From: Promethearchaeota archaeon
GTDB lineage: Archaea; Asgardarchaeota; Lokiarchaeia; Sigyniarchaeales; SOKP01
Length of the DNA: 64,000 nt
Direction: 5' to 3'
Assembly: GCA_048937405.1 (NCBI GenBank)
Contig: JBHLNF010000002.1
Span: forward strand, 480,001 to 544,000
Position 1 is the first letter of the stretch; the number at the start of each line of letters is the position of its first letter. The position numbers and the translations under genes are program-made. The notes below the pieces were generated by a model, which saw only the letters and a program-made list of their open reading frames with translations, ran no database searches and had not been told where the DNA came from. Positions 17,928-42,678 of this stretch are shown piece by piece.

Positions 17928-19496
17928 ATGAAACTAAAAGTTAAAGAAATTAATTTTGAAACAGGCAATCCTAAAGATATTGTCTTAAACATCAAAGATG
18001 CTAAAGAATTGGGTCAAAAAGCAGGAGAACGGGTCTTTATTAAAAATCTAAAATCAAAATCTTTGGAAGATAAATATTGGGTTGCTATTATTCAAATTGA
18101 TTATTTAGGCACCATTGTTAAATCTGGAGAAATAGGGTTATTTCTTAACCTGTTAAGAGAAAAAAAAGATTTAAAAAATGAAATGCTCGTCTCAGTAAAA
18201 CCAGCAGATCCTCCCGATTCATTTAGATTTATTCAAAAAAAGATCAAAGGGAATAAAATAACTAGCGAAGAAATTAACAGTATTATTAATGACGCAGTCT
18301 CAGGTTCCTTATCGAGGATTGATTTGGCTGCTTTCATAACAGCTGTATCGATTAAAGGAATGGATAATGAGGAAATGACCGCTTTAACCTTATCAGAAAC
18401 AAAAAGTGGAGAAATTTTTTATTTCGGAATGGACGTCTACGATAAACATAGCACAAAAATTTACATTTAGTAAATTTTGTTAAAAGGTGGCGTTCCAGGA
18501 AATAAAGTTTCATTGATAATTGTTCCAATTATTGCTGCAGCGGGATTAACAATTCCAAAATCATCAACAAGAGCTATCACATCCCCTTCAGGTACAGCAG
18601 ATTCAATGGAAGTTTTAGCTCCTGTATCTTTCTCTCCAGATGAGCTAAAAAAAATTGTAGCCGATCAAAATGCGTGTATAATATGGGGTGGTGCTCTTGA
18701 AACTGCACCGGCAGATAATATATTAATAGAAATTGAGCGTCCTTTACATATGGATCCTATTGGTCTTATGATACCTTCTATTTTAACAAAAAAGCTTTCG
18801 TTGGGGGTTAAAAAGCTAGTTCTTGATATTCCTGTTGGAGAGGGAACTAAATTTATTACGACTGATAAAGGAAAGCAATTTGCATACTTATTTAAAGAAA
18901 TCGCAGCAAATGTTGGAATTGAGGCAGAGTGTGCTTTAACTTTAGCTCATCAACCAATAGGTCATGCTGTAGGTCCTGCTCTTGAAGCAAAAGAAGCTCT
19001 TACATTATTACGTGATTATTCTACTGGACCTAATTCCTTAATAGAAAAGTCTACAGACCTAGCAGGGATGCTACTAGAAATGGGTGGGAAAGCTCAAAAG
19101 GGGATGGGACAAACTCTAGCAAAAGATATATTACGGACTGGAAAAGCCTATGAAAAAATGAAAAAAATTATTGAAGCACAAGGGGGAAATCCTGAAATAA
19201 TACCTGAAGATATCGAATTAGGACCCTATGTTAAAGATTTTTATTCTTCAAAAGATGGTTATATTGTTGATGTTAATAACGCACTCATTAATCAAATTGC
19301 AAAAACTGCTGGGTGTCCTAACTCAAAAACTTCAGGAGTAGTAATTATAAAAAAACAGGGAGCAAAAATTAAGGAAGGAGAACTCGTGTTTAAAATATAT
19401 TCCCATAGTGAATCAAAATTAAGAAAAGCAGAAAAGATATATAATGCTACAGGAGGTCCTATTAGGTTAGGTGGAATGGTGATTGAAAGAGTCTAA
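17928..19496 (+). CDS. deoA: AMP phosphorylase (thymidine phosphorylase family), interrupted by a 30-nt intron; spliced product 512 aa
   Basis: Exons 17928-18454 and 18485-19496 give DKHSTGGVPGNK; also PKSSTRAITSPSGTADSMEVL and LDIPVG; N-terminal extension typical of archaeal AMP phosphorylase. Confidence 0.9.
18455..18484 (+). other. Putative archaeal BHB/BHL-type intron in a protein-coding gene
   Basis: UAGC/GUUA 4-bp helix, ACA and AAA 3-nt bulges, perfect 9-bp intron stem with 5-nt loop; contains in-frame TAG TAA. Confidence 0.8.
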
Positions 19497-19529: not shown

Positions 19530-21020
19530 ATGCCTTTAACTCCAAATGCTATTTATGAGGATTTCAAAAATAAAGATCTAGATTATAATTCAACTCTTGA
19601 ATTATTAATAATGCTAATCGATAATGCTGATAGCATAAATACACGTCTAGAATGTATTGAAATCTTGAATAAAATTAAATCTAAAGATGATAGAGTATTT
19701 GAAATATTAGAAAATTTATTAATCTCTGATTCAAACAAAGAAATAAGAAATAGGGCTGCCCTTTATATAAAAACACATTTTTTAGATAGAGCTTTGAAAC
19801 CAATGAGTTGGGCTCTTGAATATGAAACAACAATCAAATGCATAATTACTGTAATATCAACAATTTCGGAAATTAAGGACGAAAAATCTAAATCAGTATT
19901 GTTTGATAAATTAATTTATTTCTACAATCAAGAAATTAAATATAATTTGAAAAATATTTTTAAAGTCAAAAAATATGAAGATTTTACAGTTGAAGACCTT
20001 GCAGAAATATTGATAAATTATTATTTTATTTTATCCCTAAAAAAAAAATTTGGTTATATTAAGTATGAGTTTGATGCTACTGGTTTTATTACAAAACTAG
20101 ATTTAACTAATATCGATGCACAAGGTATTTTTTTGATAGATTTCCTTGAACTAATATCATCGCTAAAGCATCTTCAAGTTCTTGATTTAAGATTCAATAA
20201 ATTAACTAAATTAATGGAGATCCCTGTCGAAATAACATCCTTGAGATCTTTAGATTTAAGTTATAATCACATTTTCAGTCTTAAAGAATCAATTGATAAA
20301 TTAAAGTCCCTGAAAATATTAAATTTAAAATCTAATAGGTTGCGCATTCTTCCTAACTCTCTTGGTAACCTAAAATTACTTCAATCGTTAAATTTAAGAA
20401 ATAATTTTTTGAAGAAGATTCCAGAATCAATAAATTCTCTAAAAAGATTAGAGACTTTAGACTTACATGGAAATAAATTGAATTCAATTACATTCAAATT
20501 AAATATTCCTATTAAAAAACTTGAATTAGGTTGGAATAACTTTCTAGAAGTCCCACCCAGTATTAAATTACTTACCTCATTAGCAGAATTGGGTTTAAGT
20601 GGAAACAAATTAAAGACTATTCCTAAATGGATTTCTTCACTTCAGTCATTAAAAGTTTTAAATTTATATGATAATAATATATCCCACTTGCCCAAATCTT
20701 TAGGTCTTCTAAAATCTTTAGAAGTTTTAATTTTAAGGAATAATAGTCTTTTAAAATTACCAGATAATTTTAAACGTTTAAAAAGTCTTAAAATCCTTAA
20801 TTTAAGTTGGAACAACTTTGCTCAAATCCCTAAATGGATCGGAGAATTGGATTCACTTGAGGATTTAAATTTATGGGGAAATAAACTTGATTCACTCCCT
20901 AGATCAATACTCTCATTATCTCACCTTAAGATCTTAGATATAAATTTTAATAAATTCGAGTCTTTCCCTCCATTTTTAAAAGAATTAGAAAGAAGAAAAG
21001 ATCTTATTATTAAATATTAG
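19530..21020 (+). CDS. HEAT-repeat plus leucine-rich repeat protein
   Basis: LENLLISDSNKEIRNRAA HEAT unit; about 13 LxxLxLxxNxL repeats. Confidence 0.9.
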   Translation: MPLTPNAIYEDFKNKDLDYNSTLELLIMLIDNADSINTRLECIEILNKIKSKDDRVFEILENLLISDSNKEIRNRAALYIKTHFLDRALKPMSWALEYETTIKCIITVISTISEIKDEKSKSVLFDKLIYFYNQEIKYNLKNIFKVKKYEDFTVEDLAEILINYYFILSLKKKFGYIKYEFDATGFITKLDLTNIDAQGIFLIDFLELISSLKHLQVLDLRFNKLTKLMEIPVEITSLRSLDLSYNHIFSLKESIDKLKSLKILNLKSNRLRILPNSLGNLKLLQSLNLRNNFLKKIPESINSLKRLETLDLHGNKLNSITFKLNIPIKKLELGWNNFLEVPPSIKLLTSLAELGLSGNKLKTIPKWISSLQSLKVLNLYDNNISHLPKSLGLLKSLEVLILRNNSLLKLPDNFKRLKSLKILNLSWNNFAQIPKWIGELDSLEDLNLWGNKLDSLPRSILSLSHLKILDINFNKFESFPPFLKELERRKDLIIKY

Positions 21021-27388: not shown

Positions 27389-28726
27389 TTATTTTTCAAT
27401 TAATTGTGTTTTTCCCGTCCCCCATACTCCAAGGGCGACACCTAATTCCTTCTTCTCTTTAGCTACGTCTTTTACGTTCTTACCCTCCATAACCGCATCT
27501 ATTGCTTGTCTAAAAGCAATAGCGCCAGCTATAGGCCCATCAGGATGACTATGGATACCACCTCCACTTCCAATAAGGATATCCGTTCCAGCTTCTTTTA
27601 TACATTTCTCAACCATTCCTTGTGTTATTCCACCACTAGGCATTGGGAGTGTTGGTTTAATGTTTTGTAATGAATATCGAAGGGCCTTAAGATTTTGCTC
27701 ATATCTTTCTTCTAATATTTCTGCCTTTCCATATGGGGCAGGGATGACTACTATATCAGCACCACAAATCCGTGGTAATTTTGCAAATGTTAACATACTA
27801 GTCATTCCTGTCCATTCTCCTCCAAAATATGTACCACCAAAATCCATGTGTCCTAGAATTGGAACATTTATTGAAGGATCCTCTGCTATTTGTCTCAGAG
27901 CTTCATAACCAGTAGCTAAATAATTTATCATCAAGGCATTGGCACCTAATTCGATCATCTTATCCGCGTGTTCAAATATATCTGGGAATTTAGAGGTAAT
28001 ATTGATAGTATATAAAGTTTTTTCGCCTTTCTCTGCGTCTGCTTTGTCAACAGCTTCCATAACCTTGACAATTCGCTCTTCAAGTCTATTAAAGGAGGGA
28101 TCTGAGATTAATTCATCATCTTTTACTACATCGCAACCACCGACTGCAGCTTTATAAACTAAATCTGCAGCTACATCTGCTGTATGCCCCGTACACGGTT
28201 TAACCATATTATTCAAAAGTGGACGTGTAGGAATATTCATAAGTTTCCTAATTCCATCAATTCCAAATTTAGGACCTTTAAAATCTTCTAACCAAGCTTT
28301 AGGAAATGCTAAATCAACCAACTTTAAACCGTGAGTTATACTAATATTTCCAATTACTGTTGTGAATAACATTGGAATCCCCATTCCCTTAATATTTATG
28401 ATAGGAAATCCGATTTGAACGAAGTATGTTCTTTCTTTAATATCTTTAGGGATAACATATTCATACATAGGAAGTTCATATACGCCAAGTACTCTAGCAA
28501 CATGGTATTTTCTCACTTCTTCTGTTTCAGCTGGAACTCTAATCCAAGTTCCAGTGGATTGTTCAATTGCAGCAAAACGGGATAAGTAATTAACATTTTG
28601 GCCTTTAGGACGTTTAATAATGTATGAAGCAATTATATATTTTTCTATATCAATTCCATCTAACATAGCTTCTGGAACATCATAATATTGCTCACAAGAG
28701 GGAAATTCTCCTTCCATTTTAATCAC
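27389..28726 (-). CDS. RubisCO-like protein (form IV)
   Basis: EQSTGTW, GPKFG, KDDE and SGG motifs; HMDFGG instead of the HR motif of true RubisCO. Confidence 0.88.
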   Translation of the reverse strand: MIKMEGEFPSCEQYYDVPEAMLDGIDIEKYIIASYIIKRPKGQNVNYLSRFAAIEQSTGTWIRVPAETEEVRKYHVARVLGVYELPMYEYVIPKDIKERTYFVQIGFPIINIKGMGIPMLFTTVIGNISITHGLKLVDLAFPKAWLEDFKGPKFGIDGIRKLMNIPTRPLLNNMVKPCTGHTADVAADLVYKAAVGGCDVVKDDELISDPSFNRLEERIVKVMEAVDKADAEKGEKTLYTINITSKFPDIFEHADKMIELGANALMINYLATGYEALRQIAEDPSINVPILGHMDFGGTYFGGEWTGMTSMLTFAKLPRICGADIVVIPAPYGKAEILEERYEQNLKALRYSLQNIKPTLPMPSGGITQGMVEKCIKEAGTDILIGSGGGIHSHPDGPIAGAIAFRQAIDAVMEGKNVKDVAKEKKELGVALGVWGTGKTQLIEK

Positions 28727-42573: not shown

Positions 42574-42678
42574 GCAGATGTAGCCTAGCTGGTAAGACGC
42601 CGGCCTCGAGCATTATAAATAATAATCAAGAAAGCCGGTGCGCGTAAGCGCTCGGGGGTTCAATTCCCTCCATCTGCG
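42574..42678 (+). tRNA. tRNA-Ser(CGA) with 22-nt intron at 37/38 (42611-42632)
   Basis: Acceptor GCAGATG/CATCTGC with G discriminator; anticodon stem CCGGC/GCCGG; CGA at 42607-09; long variable arm; GGTTCAATTCC T-arm; BHB-type intron. Confidence 0.92.

What the first reader, a model, noticed from the sequence alone, without database searches (positions are those of the whole stretch)
18449..18488. Candidate tRNA-type (bulge-helix-bulge) intron in an Asgard mRNA, inside the AMP phosphorylase active-site motif
Seen: the conserved DKHSTGG motif is broken by exactly 30 nt containing in-frame TAG TAA. The RNA folds as UAGC (18449-52), bulge AC^A, 9-bp perfect stem AAAAUUUAC/GUAAAUUUU with AUUUA loop, GUUA (18479-82, pairing with UAGC via one G-U), then bulge AA^A. 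Known: archaeal splicing endonuclease cuts after the second nucleotide of each 3-nt bulge flanking a 4-bp helix. Applying that rule removes 18455-18484 and gives CAT AGC ACA GGT GGC = HSTGG and a full-length 512-aa enzyme; both halves are otherwise intact. The exon-exon helix is weak, so this is a relaxed (BHL-like) motif. The tRNA-Ser intron at 42611 has the same design (AU stem, 5-nt loop, AA^A). The well-established archaeal mRNA case I know is crenarchaeal cbf5. Inference: endonuclease/ligase-dependent mRNA splicing in Asgard archaea, perhaps gating nucleotide salvage on RNA-processing activity. It is conceptually similar to non-spliceosomal HAC1/XBP1 splicing, and more such introns may hide among apparently split Asgard genes.
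Basis: partly seen in the sequence, partly recalled or inferred. Interest (0 to 1): 0.95.

Follow-up and report, generated by a model that had tools for sequence, protein, structure and literature searches.

The report
tRNA-type mini-intron in Asgard AMP phosphorylase
The only AMP phosphorylase gene of this Lokiarchaeia-type Asgard archaeon is interrupted inside its phosphate-binding motif by a 30-base intron shaped like an archaeal tRNA intron; comparison with relatives shows it is real and under selection, although the spliced RNA itself has not been observed.

Summary
Window 18455-18484 is a 30-nt insert with in-frame stops. It splits an AMP phosphorylase gene (TIGR03327: profile 1-165 | 167-500) within DKHST|GG.

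- **Fold:** a 4-bp helix, two 3-nt bulges and a 9-bp hairpin. No exon-exon helix closes the 3' bulge, so this is a relaxed HBh' motif.
- **Distribution:** a model of the intron finds one copy per genome in 36 of 134 species of the family, in 10 of 13 genera.
- **Covariation:** in 21 aligned copies, 97.8% of pair cells are paired and 9 of 13 pairs show compensatory changes. The third base of the His codon covaries with an intron base (15 U-A, 6 C-G, no mismatch).
- **Length variants:** introns of 29, 30 and 31 nt all give DKHSTGGVP when cut after the second base of each bulge.
- **Selection:** both exons are under strong purifying selection (dN/dS about 0.03-0.24, dS > 1). No second AMP phosphorylase copy was found.
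- **Machinery:** the genome has two EndA paralogues, one a crenarchaeal-type catalytic subunit with the extra loop, plus RtcB.
- **History:** the intron descends vertically and was lost precisely at least 10 times.
- **Missing evidence:** no RNA data exist, so splicing is inferred.

This scan had already noted the same intron in other genomes (follow-up e1-4886982). A second mRNA intron, in a methylmalonyl-CoA mutase gene, was verified in this genome.

The parts
17928..18454 (+). Exon 1 of the AMP phosphorylase gene: 175 codons plus the first two bases (AC) of the Thr codon of DKHST.
   Evidence: ORF. Pfam Glycos_trans_3N. TIGR03327 profile positions 1-165. dN/dS 0.03-0.24 against other intron-bearing orthologues.
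18449..18452 (+). 5' strand (UAGC, exon) of the central 4-bp helix H. It pairs with 18479-18482.
   Evidence: Paired in 100% of cells in 21 sequences. The His-codon third base covaries with the intron base: 15 U-A, 6 C-G. H is 4/4 paired in 14 further genomes.
18453..18455 (+). 5' three-base bulge ACA. The predicted cut lies between 18454 and 18455.
   Evidence: Sequence. The bulge is ACA or ACU in all 35 copies read. Contigs of intron-less relatives diverge from the window at 18454.
18455..18484 (+). The 30-nt intron, with in-frame TAG TAA.
   Evidence: It is unique in the genome. One copy per genome in 36 of 134 family genomes.
18456..18478 (+). Intron hairpin h': 9-bp stem 18456-18464 / 18470-18478, loop 18465-18469.
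   Evidence: 8 of 9 stem pairs show compensatory changes and 96.8% of cells are paired. The length changes from 29 to 31 nt fall in the loop.
18479..18482 (+). 3' strand (GUUA, intron) of the central helix H.
18483..18485 (+). 3' three-base bulge AAA. The predicted cut lies between 18484 and 18485. Base 18485 becomes the third base of the Thr codon.
   Evidence: The bulge reads AAA, AUU, AAC, AAU, AAG or ACA across relatives, and always gives Thr. No closing exon-exon pair: A.G in 21 of 21.
18485..19496 (+). Exon 2: the last base of the Thr codon, 336 codons (GGVPGNK... to the end) and the stop.
   Evidence: Pfam Glycos_transf_3 and PYNP_C. TIGR03327 profile 167-500. Matches PDB 4ga4/4ga5, E = 4.5e-102 and 1.5e-99. 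dN/dS 0.04-0.12.

Best explanation
The 30 nt at 18455-18484 are an archaeal splicing-endonuclease intron in the pre-mRNA of the AMP phosphorylase gene.

The proposed mechanism runs as follows:

1. The transcript folds so that exon bases UAGC pair with intron bases GUUA, forming helix H.
2. H is flanked on opposite strands by two 3-nt bulges, and an intron hairpin (h') stacks on the 5' bulge.
3. The cell's heteromeric EndA cuts after the second base of each bulge.
4. RtcB joins the 2',3'-cyclic phosphate and 5'-OH ends. This rebuilds the Thr codon and the motif DKHSTGG, so a 512-aa enzyme can be translated.
5. Unspliced mRNA can give only a truncated 180-aa product.

**Shown here:** the insert and its fold; selection on that fold on the sense RNA strand; selection on both exons; the presence of the enzymes; and the in-silico splice product in 35 copies.

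**Inferred:** that cleavage and ligation actually happen, and which enzymes carry them out.

The intron arose once in the family's ancestor, was inherited vertically, and was lost precisely many times. It looks like a tolerated passenger, not a regulator.
For: 1. **Same site across the family.** One copy per genome in 22 of 54 species of the genus and 36 of 134 species of the family, in 10 of 13 genera.
2. **Covariation in 21 copies.** 97.8% of pair cells are standard pairs. 9 of 13 pairs have changes on both sides. No shuffle of 500 and no slid register comes near this.
3. **Exon-intron pairing.** Helix H joins exon to intron. The synonymous third base of the His codon covaries with an intron base (15 UA, 6 CG, no mismatch). 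All 35 intron-bearing copies read use AGY for Ser, as pairing requires, while many intron-less genes use TCN.
4. **Sense-strand structure.** 29 of 273 pair cells are G.U (summed). These would be C.A mismatches on the other strand or in DNA, so the selected structure is sense-strand RNA.
5. **Length variants.** Introns are 29, 30 or 31 nt, with the difference in the loop. Cutting after base 2 of each bulge gives DKHSTGGVP in every case. At 29 and 31 nt the two exons lie in different frames in the DNA.
6. **In-frame stops.** All 21 aligned copies carry one.
7. **Purifying selection.** Both exons evolve at dN/dS about 0.03-0.24 with dS mostly above 1. The intron of G000 differs from that of G018 at 1 of 30 bases, where 61-75% of synonymous sites differ.
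8. **No spare copy, and pathway partners present.** No second AMP phosphorylase copy was found in the 7 intron-bearing genomes searched first. RuBisCO-like and e2b2-isomerase genes are present.
9. **Machinery.** There are two EndA-family genes. One aligns end to end with crenarchaeal catalytic subunits, including the Crenarchaea-specific loop segment and the Y/H/K motifs. RtcB is present. Asgard EndA is reported as (alpha-beta)2 with the L1 loop, the type that cuts relaxed motifs (PMC5829648).
10. **Active use of the pathway.** The tRNA-Ser intron in the window has the same layout. 14 of the 20 tRNA genes found are about 90-140 nt long.
11. **Precise losses.** Intron-less alleles equal the predicted spliced sequence exactly, at least 10 independent times on the gene tree.
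12. **A second case.** A second gene of this genome has a 31-nt intron of the same kind.
Against: - No RNA-level observation exists. No spliced transcript, excised or circular intron, or peptide across the junction has been seen.
- The motif is not the strict hBHBh' form. The pair that should close the 3' bulge is A.G in 21 of 21 copies, so cleavage depends on an endonuclease with relaxed specificity. That specificity is inferred from sequence and from the literature. It has not been assayed for this organism.
- The single-sequence fold is only moderately better than shuffles (z = -2.37).
- All genomes are MAGs.
Confidence: 0.87

Rival explanations
1. Two-piece enzyme. The gene is truly split. 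A 180-aa N fragment and a 339-aa C fragment (starting at TTG 18477) are translated separately and assemble without any RNA splicing.
For: - Both halves are intact and under purifying selection.
- An in-frame TTG lies three codons before GG in 18 of 21 copies.
- Length variants of 29 and 31 nt are compatible with separate translation.
Against: - The break lies inside the phosphate-binding loop DKHS-T-GG, within a codon.
- Three copies (L089, L092, L093) have no ATG, GTG or TTG between the stop and GG.
- The TTG is made of stem and helix-H bases and would be buried in the fold.
- This model does not explain the invariant 4-bp helix plus two 3-nt bulges, the exon-intron covariation, or why intron-less alleles match the predicted splice product exactly.
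Confidence: 0.05
2. Programmed translational bypassing. As in phage T4 gene 60, ribosomes take off before the hairpin and land after it, skipping the 30 nt.
For: A stable hairpin and stop codons follow directly after the last sense codon.
Against: - Bypassing needs matching take-off and landing codons. The codon before the gap is ACA or ACU (Thr), while the triplet before GGU is AAA, AUU, AAC, AAU, AAG or ACA, so only one copy of 35 offers a match.
- The conserved features are those of an endonuclease substrate: a 4-bp helix between two 3-nt bulges.
Confidence: 0.02
3. Dead gene or inert DNA insertion. Either a small palindromic insertion inactivated the gene (pseudogene), or the insert is an assembly artefact.
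For: - The insert is an almost perfect palindrome with stop codons.
- An annotation pipeline reading the raw frames would call two fragments.
Against: - dN/dS is 0.03-0.24 on both halves, with synonymous sites near saturation.
- The insert is kept at one site across a family.
- It is unique in the genome, with no repeat family.
- G.U pairs show that the constraint acts on the RNA.
- Independent assemblies and runs from two studies contain it.
Confidence: 0.02
4. Regulated intron. The intron is spliced as in the best explanation, but splicing is conditional and gates AMP salvage, in the manner of HAC1/XBP1.
For: The intron sequence is far more conserved than synonymous sites. That could reflect more than the minimum needed for cleavage.
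Against: - The intron model found no match in 98 of 134 species of the family, and 48 of 67 orthologues read at the site are uninterrupted. The intron was lost at least 10 times.
- No sensor or conditional element is visible.
- Similar mini-introns sit in unrelated genes of the same genome, which fits passengers better than a dedicated switch.
Confidence: 0.04

Closest known systems
cbf5 pre-mRNA intron of Crenarchaeota (Watanabe 2002; Yoshinari 2006; Yokobori 2009, PMC2738675)
   Same: - A short BHB-type intron inside a protein-coding sequence.
- Linked to a hetero-oligomeric splicing endonuclease.
- Present in an ancestor and lost in some lineages.
- Breaks gene prediction.
   Different: - A different gene (a metabolic enzyme, not an RNA-modifying one) and a different phylum (Asgard, Lokiarchaeia-type).
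- Here the motif is the relaxed HBh' form with no exon-exon helix.
- Loss is far more frequent: at least 10 losses within one family, against at least 2 for cbf5.
- cbf5 splicing was shown experimentally; this one was not.
Archaeal tRNA introns of the same genome, for example tRNA-Ser(CGA) at window 42574-42678
   Same: The layout is identical: one intron base in the 5' bulge, an AU-rich hairpin with a 5-nt loop, a 4-nt strand of helix H, and an AA^A 3' bulge. Sizes are similar (22 against 30 nt). The same enzymes are expected to act.
   Different: - The host RNA is an mRNA.
- The anticodon stem that closes the 3' bulge in tRNA has no counterpart here.
- The hairpin is longer (9 bp against 5 bp).
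- There is no sequence similarity to other introns of the genome.
HAC1/XBP1 unconventional mRNA splicing (IRE1 plus tRNA ligase/RtcB)
   Same: Protein-only, spliceosome-independent excision of a short intron from an mRNA at structure-defined sites, followed by RtcB-type ligation (XBP1).
   Different: The nuclease (IRE1) and its substrate (two 7-nt loops) are unrelated to EndA and BHB. That system is a stress switch, and no regulation is shown here. This is an analogy only.
Phage T4 gene 60 translational bypass
   Same: A coding gap with a hairpin and a stop codon, read as one protein.
   Different: The gap is skipped by the ribosome, not removed from the RNA, and this needs matched take-off and landing codons. 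Those are absent here in 34 of 35 copies.

Membership tests
Archaeal splicing-endonuclease (BHB) intron | A central helix of exactly 4 bp, flanked by two 3-nt bulges on opposite strands. | tested here: met
   UAGC/GUUA with bulges ACA and AAA. Helix H is paired in 100% of cells in 21 copies and 4/4 in 14 further genomes. The bulges are always 3 nt.
Archaeal splicing-endonuclease (BHB) intron | Strict hBHBh' form: both bulges are closed by outer helices h and h'. | tested here: not met
   h' is present (a 9-bp intron hairpin). The pair next to the 3' bulge is A.G in 21 of 21 copies, so h is absent. A distal helix from the single-sequence fold is not conserved. The motif is therefore the relaxed HBh' type.
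Archaeal splicing-endonuclease (BHB) intron | Relaxed HBh' form accepted by (alpha-beta)2 or epsilon2 endonucleases that carry the extra loop. | tested here: met
   The motif fits HBh'. The genome has two EndA paralogues. One aligns with crenarchaeal catalytic subunits through the Crenarchaea-specific loop segment (loop position from PMC2724299). Asgard EndA is reported as (alpha-beta)2 with the L1 loop (PMC5829648). Enzyme specificity itself was not assayed.
Archaeal splicing-endonuclease (BHB) intron | Cutting after the second base of each bulge yields a functional joined RNA. | tested here: met
   In silico, the rule gives HSTGG / DKHSTGGVP in all 35 copies read, including introns of 29 and 31 nt. 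The product equals the intron-less orthologues.
Archaeal splicing-endonuclease (BHB) intron | The structure is maintained by compensatory evolution. | tested here: met
   9 of 13 pairs have double changes. Covariation score is 0.467 against 0.234 in shuffles, with 0 of 500 shuffles as high. Slid registers give at most 0.116.
Archaeal splicing-endonuclease (BHB) intron | An RNA ligase for 2',3'-cyclic phosphate and 5'-OH ends (RtcB) is present. | tested here: met
   PF01139 match of 564.6 bits in a 519-aa frame at G000:C25.
Archaeal splicing-endonuclease (BHB) intron | The intron is actually excised and the exons ligated in RNA. | not testable with these tools
   No RNA run holds the gene. The spliced junction is absent from the metagenome contigs scanned.
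AMP phosphorylase (NCBIfam TIGR03327, equivalog) | Full-length match above the curated cut-off. | tested here: met
   The N half scores 108.9 bits on profile 1-165 and the C half 448 bits on profile 167-500. The sum of 557 bits exceeds the 535-bit cut-off. The best solved relatives are 4ga4/4ga5, which I recall as the Thermococcus kodakarensis AMP phosphorylase. Activity was not assayed.
Programmed translational bypass (T4 gene 60 type) | Matching take-off and landing codons flank the gap. | tested here: not met
   The take-off codon is ACA or ACU. The triplet before GGU is AAA, AUU, AAC, AAU or AAG in 34 of 35 copies.

The most novel reading that the evidence does not exclude
This Lokiarchaeia-type family may carry a whole population of endonuclease-spliced mini-introns (about 29-31 nt) in protein-coding genes.

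- Two were verified in this genome: AMP phosphorylase and a methylmalonyl-CoA mutase.
- At least six more were flagged by first-stage notes.
- The introns are inherited for family-level times and repeatedly lost with base precision.

If so, routine protein-dependent mRNA splicing, and probably cDNA- or recombination-mediated intron loss, operate in close prokaryotic relatives of eukaryotes.
Probability: 0.45. Interest if true: 0.9.

Novelty: new member of a known kind. Interest (0 to 1): 0.72.

Why it matters
In the papers I could search, cbf5 of Crenarchaeota is still the only archaeal protein-coding gene cited as needing tRNA-type splicing. A 2025 paper on archaeal splicing endonucleases cites only those three cbf5 studies.

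This case matters for three reasons:

- **New lineage and gene class.** It puts such an intron in a central metabolic enzyme of Asgard archaea. The comparative data are strong enough to design the decisive experiments directly.
- **A natural experiment.** About a quarter of the species in one family keep the intron and the rest lost it precisely. This pattern can inform how introns are gained, kept and lost without a spliceosome, in the lineage closest to eukaryotes.
- **Annotation.** These genes will be called as fragments or pseudogenes, so metabolic reconstructions of Asgard MAGs will wrongly miss AMP phosphorylase and similar genes.

Tried and rejected
- **RNA evidence.** No RNA holder is listed for the gene. 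Only DNA contigs could be laid. An exact 35-nt spliced-junction pattern found nothing in metagenome contigs.
- **Motif-plus-ORF scans of the genome.** I scanned for a 4-bp H, a 3-nt bulge and an inner stem, and required that excision join two open frames. This gave as many hits as controls with shifted cut sites: about 2150 each, 369 against 388-400 with a no-start filter, 25 against 20-29 for compact hairpins, and 614 against 593-666 with loosened limits. The motif alone cannot count mRNA introns in this AT-rich genome (29% GC). The scan did pick out the methylmalonyl-CoA mutase intron, which I then verified by homology.
- **Repeat or mobile-family test.** No second copy of the intron exists within 5 mismatches. 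The covariance model finds no other significant hit in the genome, and its best full-length weak hit is non-coding noise.
- **Distal outer helix.** The helix from the single-sequence fold has 8 broken cells and no compensatory change, so I rejected it.
- **Default ARAGORN.** It finds no tRNA in the window. Rfam and intron-mode ARAGORN do.
- **iorB candidate from the scan notes.** The insert is present and has a 10-bp hairpin, but only 2 of 4 helix-H pairs form. I did not pursue it.
Full report
**Observation**

GAT AAA CAT AGC ACA is followed by AAAATTTAC ATTTA GTAAATTTT GTTA AAA, and then by GGT GGC. The 5' frame (ORF 17928-18470) runs into TAG TAA. The downstream frame continues to 19496.

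The two halves are one gene:
- Pfam puts Glycos_trans_3N on the first half, and Glycos_transf_3 (profile 11-253) plus PYNP_C on the second.
- The NCBIfam equivalog TIGR03327 (AMP phosphorylase) matches the halves on profile positions 1-165 and 167-500. The one missing position is the split Thr codon. The summed score of 557 bits exceeds the 535-bit cut-off.
- The nearest solved structures are 4ga4/4ga5.
- Removing 18455-18484 gives a 512-codon frame reading HSTGG.

**The insert is real DNA**

Contigs from public DNA runs of two studies bridge the site without gaps. Contigs of intron-less relatives in the same samples diverge from the window exactly at 18454 and 18485. No RNA run holds the gene.

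**Organism**

The closest records are MAGs titled Promethearchaeota or Promethearchaeia, the Lokiarchaeia-type Asgard lineage. The genome is 4.47 Mb in 29 contigs with 29% G+C.

**Distribution**

Among 41 related genomes, 7 congeners have the gene cut at the same place, while the others have open frames of 511-519 aa. Of 67 further orthologues read at the site, 48 have no insert, 18 have 30 nt and one has 31 nt.

I built a covariance model from 18 copies. It finds:
- the AMP phosphorylase intron and nothing else significant in the window's genome;
- one hit each in 22 of 54 species of the genus;
- one hit each in 36 of 134 species of the family, spread over 10 of 13 genera.

Fourteen copies fetched from the other genera are 29, 30 or 31 nt long, and the length difference lies in the hairpin loop.

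**Structure and covariation**

On 21 aligned copies, the proposed fold is the 4-bp helix H, the 3-nt bulges and a 9-bp hairpin. It is paired in 97.8% of cells. Nine of 13 pairs carry changes on both sides. None of 500 column shuffles, and no register slid by 1-3 columns, approaches these values (the seven-sequence version is).

- **Exon-intron covariation.** Helix H joins exon to intron. The synonymous third base of the His codon (U or C) covaries with the last base of the intron strand (A or G): 15 U-A, 6 C-G, no mismatch.
- **Codon constraint.** The Ser codon is AGY in every intron-bearing gene, as pairing requires. Many intron-less genes use TCN.
- **RNA, not DNA.** Twenty-nine of the 273 pair cells are G.U (summed). 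They would be mismatches on the opposite strand, so the constraint acts on the sense RNA and not on the DNA.
- **Relaxed motif.** The exon-exon helix that would close the 3' bulge does not exist. The adjacent pair is A.G in 21 of 21 copies. A distal helix seen in the single-sequence fold is not conserved.

**The cut rule**

In archaeal tRNA introns, the endonuclease cuts after the second base of each bulge. I checked that geometry on the tRNA-Ser(CGA) of this window (42574-42678). Its 22-nt intron has the same layout: one base in the 5' bulge, a 5-bp AU stem with a 5-nt loop, a 4-nt H strand, and an AA^A bulge.

Applied to the mRNA, the rule gives DKHSTGGVP in all 35 copies examined, including those of 29 and 31 nt. 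In those copies the two exons lie in different frames in the DNA. This rules out any reading as a tolerated in-frame insertion or as stop-codon read-through.

**The gene is alive**

- Between the window's gene and 17 other intron-bearing orthologues, dN/dS is about 0.03-0.24 for exon 1 and 0.04-0.12 for exon 2. Synonymous divergence is mostly above 1.
- The intron is far more conserved than synonymous sites. It differs at 1 of 30 bases from the G018 copy, where 61-75% of synonymous sites differ.
- No second AMP phosphorylase copy was found in the seven intron-bearing genomes searched first.
- The pathway partners are present: RuBisCO-like genes, one of them inside the window at 27422-28264 on the minus strand, and an e2b2-family isomerase next to the other.

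**Machinery**

The genome has two EndA-family genes. One aligns end to end with the catalytic subunits of Aeropyrum pernix and Sulfolobus tokodaii. The alignment covers the segment that forms the Crenarchaea-specific loop, and the Tyr, His and Lys motifs. The other is nearest the Methanocaldococcus enzyme.

This fits the published statement that Asgard archaea have the (alpha-beta)2 enzyme with the L1 loop, the type that cuts relaxed motifs (PMC5829648). RtcB is present. Fourteen of the 20 tRNA genes that reach the Rfam threshold are about 90-140 nt long, so the cell relies heavily on this pathway.

**History**

On a tree of 78 distinct orthologues, the 21 intron-bearing ones are scattered. 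At least 13 changes are needed, and at least 10 are forced by well-supported branches (the 29-sequence tree is).

The intron occurs in the deepest lineages of the family and in crown lineages. The type of helix H (CAGY:GCUG or UAGY:GYUA) largely follows the gene tree (my reading). The simplest history is one ancient gain, vertical descent and many precise losses. Every intron-less allele equals the predicted spliced sequence.

**Rivals**

| Rival | Main objection |
|---|---|
| Two-piece enzyme | Break within a codon of the phosphate-binding loop; three copies lack any ATG/GTG/TTG before exon 2; does not explain the conserved endonuclease geometry |
| Translational bypass | Take-off and landing codons do not match in 34 of 35 copies |
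| Pseudogene or artefact | Contradicted by the selection data and by independent assemblies |

**Other introns in the genome**

My motif-based scans could not separate signal from chance, but they flagged G000:C15:3027.

Homology confirmed that site as a 31-nt full hBHBh' intron in a methylmalonyl-CoA-mutase-family gene:
- The Pfam profile splits as 2-54 | 58-512.
- The intron is shared only by G005 and G024.
- Nineteen congeners read at the site are uninterrupted.
- Splicing restores HGTPEETN.

First-stage notes list further candidates in this genome. The scan has also noted this same AMP phosphorylase intron in other genomes, with one earlier follow-up reaching the same verdict.

**Literature**

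In the searchable library I found no report of BHB introns in Asgard protein-coding genes. A 2025 paper on archaeal splicing endonucleases still cites only the three cbf5 studies for archaeal pre-mRNA splicing. The cbf5 work also describes ancestral presence with lineage-specific loss (PMC2738675).

**Verdict**

This is a genuine, selected, tRNA-type intron in an Asgard mRNA. It is a new member of the kind first seen in cbf5. Splicing remains to be shown at the RNA level.

Noticed in passing
G000:C15:3033-3063 (+), locus L105: A second mRNA intron: 31 nt, full hBHBh' with an exon-exon helix, in a methylmalonyl-CoA-mutase-family gene. It is present only in G000, G005 and G024. Nineteen congeners read at the site are uninterrupted. 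Splicing restores HGTPEETN.
   Followed up: yes
L106, L122, L124 around the methylmalonyl-CoA mutase intron: DNA identity among the three intron-bearing species peaks at 0.88-0.98 in the roughly 120 nt around the intron, against a typical 0.8 along the rest of the gene. This could reflect structural constraint, or co-conversion and lateral spread of the intron with its flanks.
   Followed up: partly
G000:C28, about 81590-81620 (-): iorB is split between GSE and MHGLAQR by 30 nt with two ochre stops and a 10-bp hairpin. The bulge geometry fits, but only 2 of 4 central-helix pairs form, and a 7-bp exon-exon helix lies further out.
   Followed up: partly
window 42574-42678 (+): tRNA-Ser(CGA) with a 22-nt intron at 42611-42632, laid out like the mRNA intron. 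Default ARAGORN misses it. Rfam and intron-mode ARAGORN find it.
   Followed up: yes
whole genome G000: Only 20 tRNA genes reach the Rfam threshold in a genome rated 100% complete, and 14 of them are about 90-140 nt long. tRNA genes seem heavily interrupted, and some are probably missed.
   Followed up: no
window 27422-28264 (-): A RuBisCO large-subunit homologue (162.7 bits) lies about 9 kb downstream of the AMP phosphorylase gene. A stronger one sits next to an e2b2-family isomerase at G000:C28:205471-207290.
   Followed up: no
window 19530-21020 (+): The gene directly downstream encodes a 496-aa protein. By eye its sequence carries many leucine-rich repeats. No family search was run.
   Followed up: no
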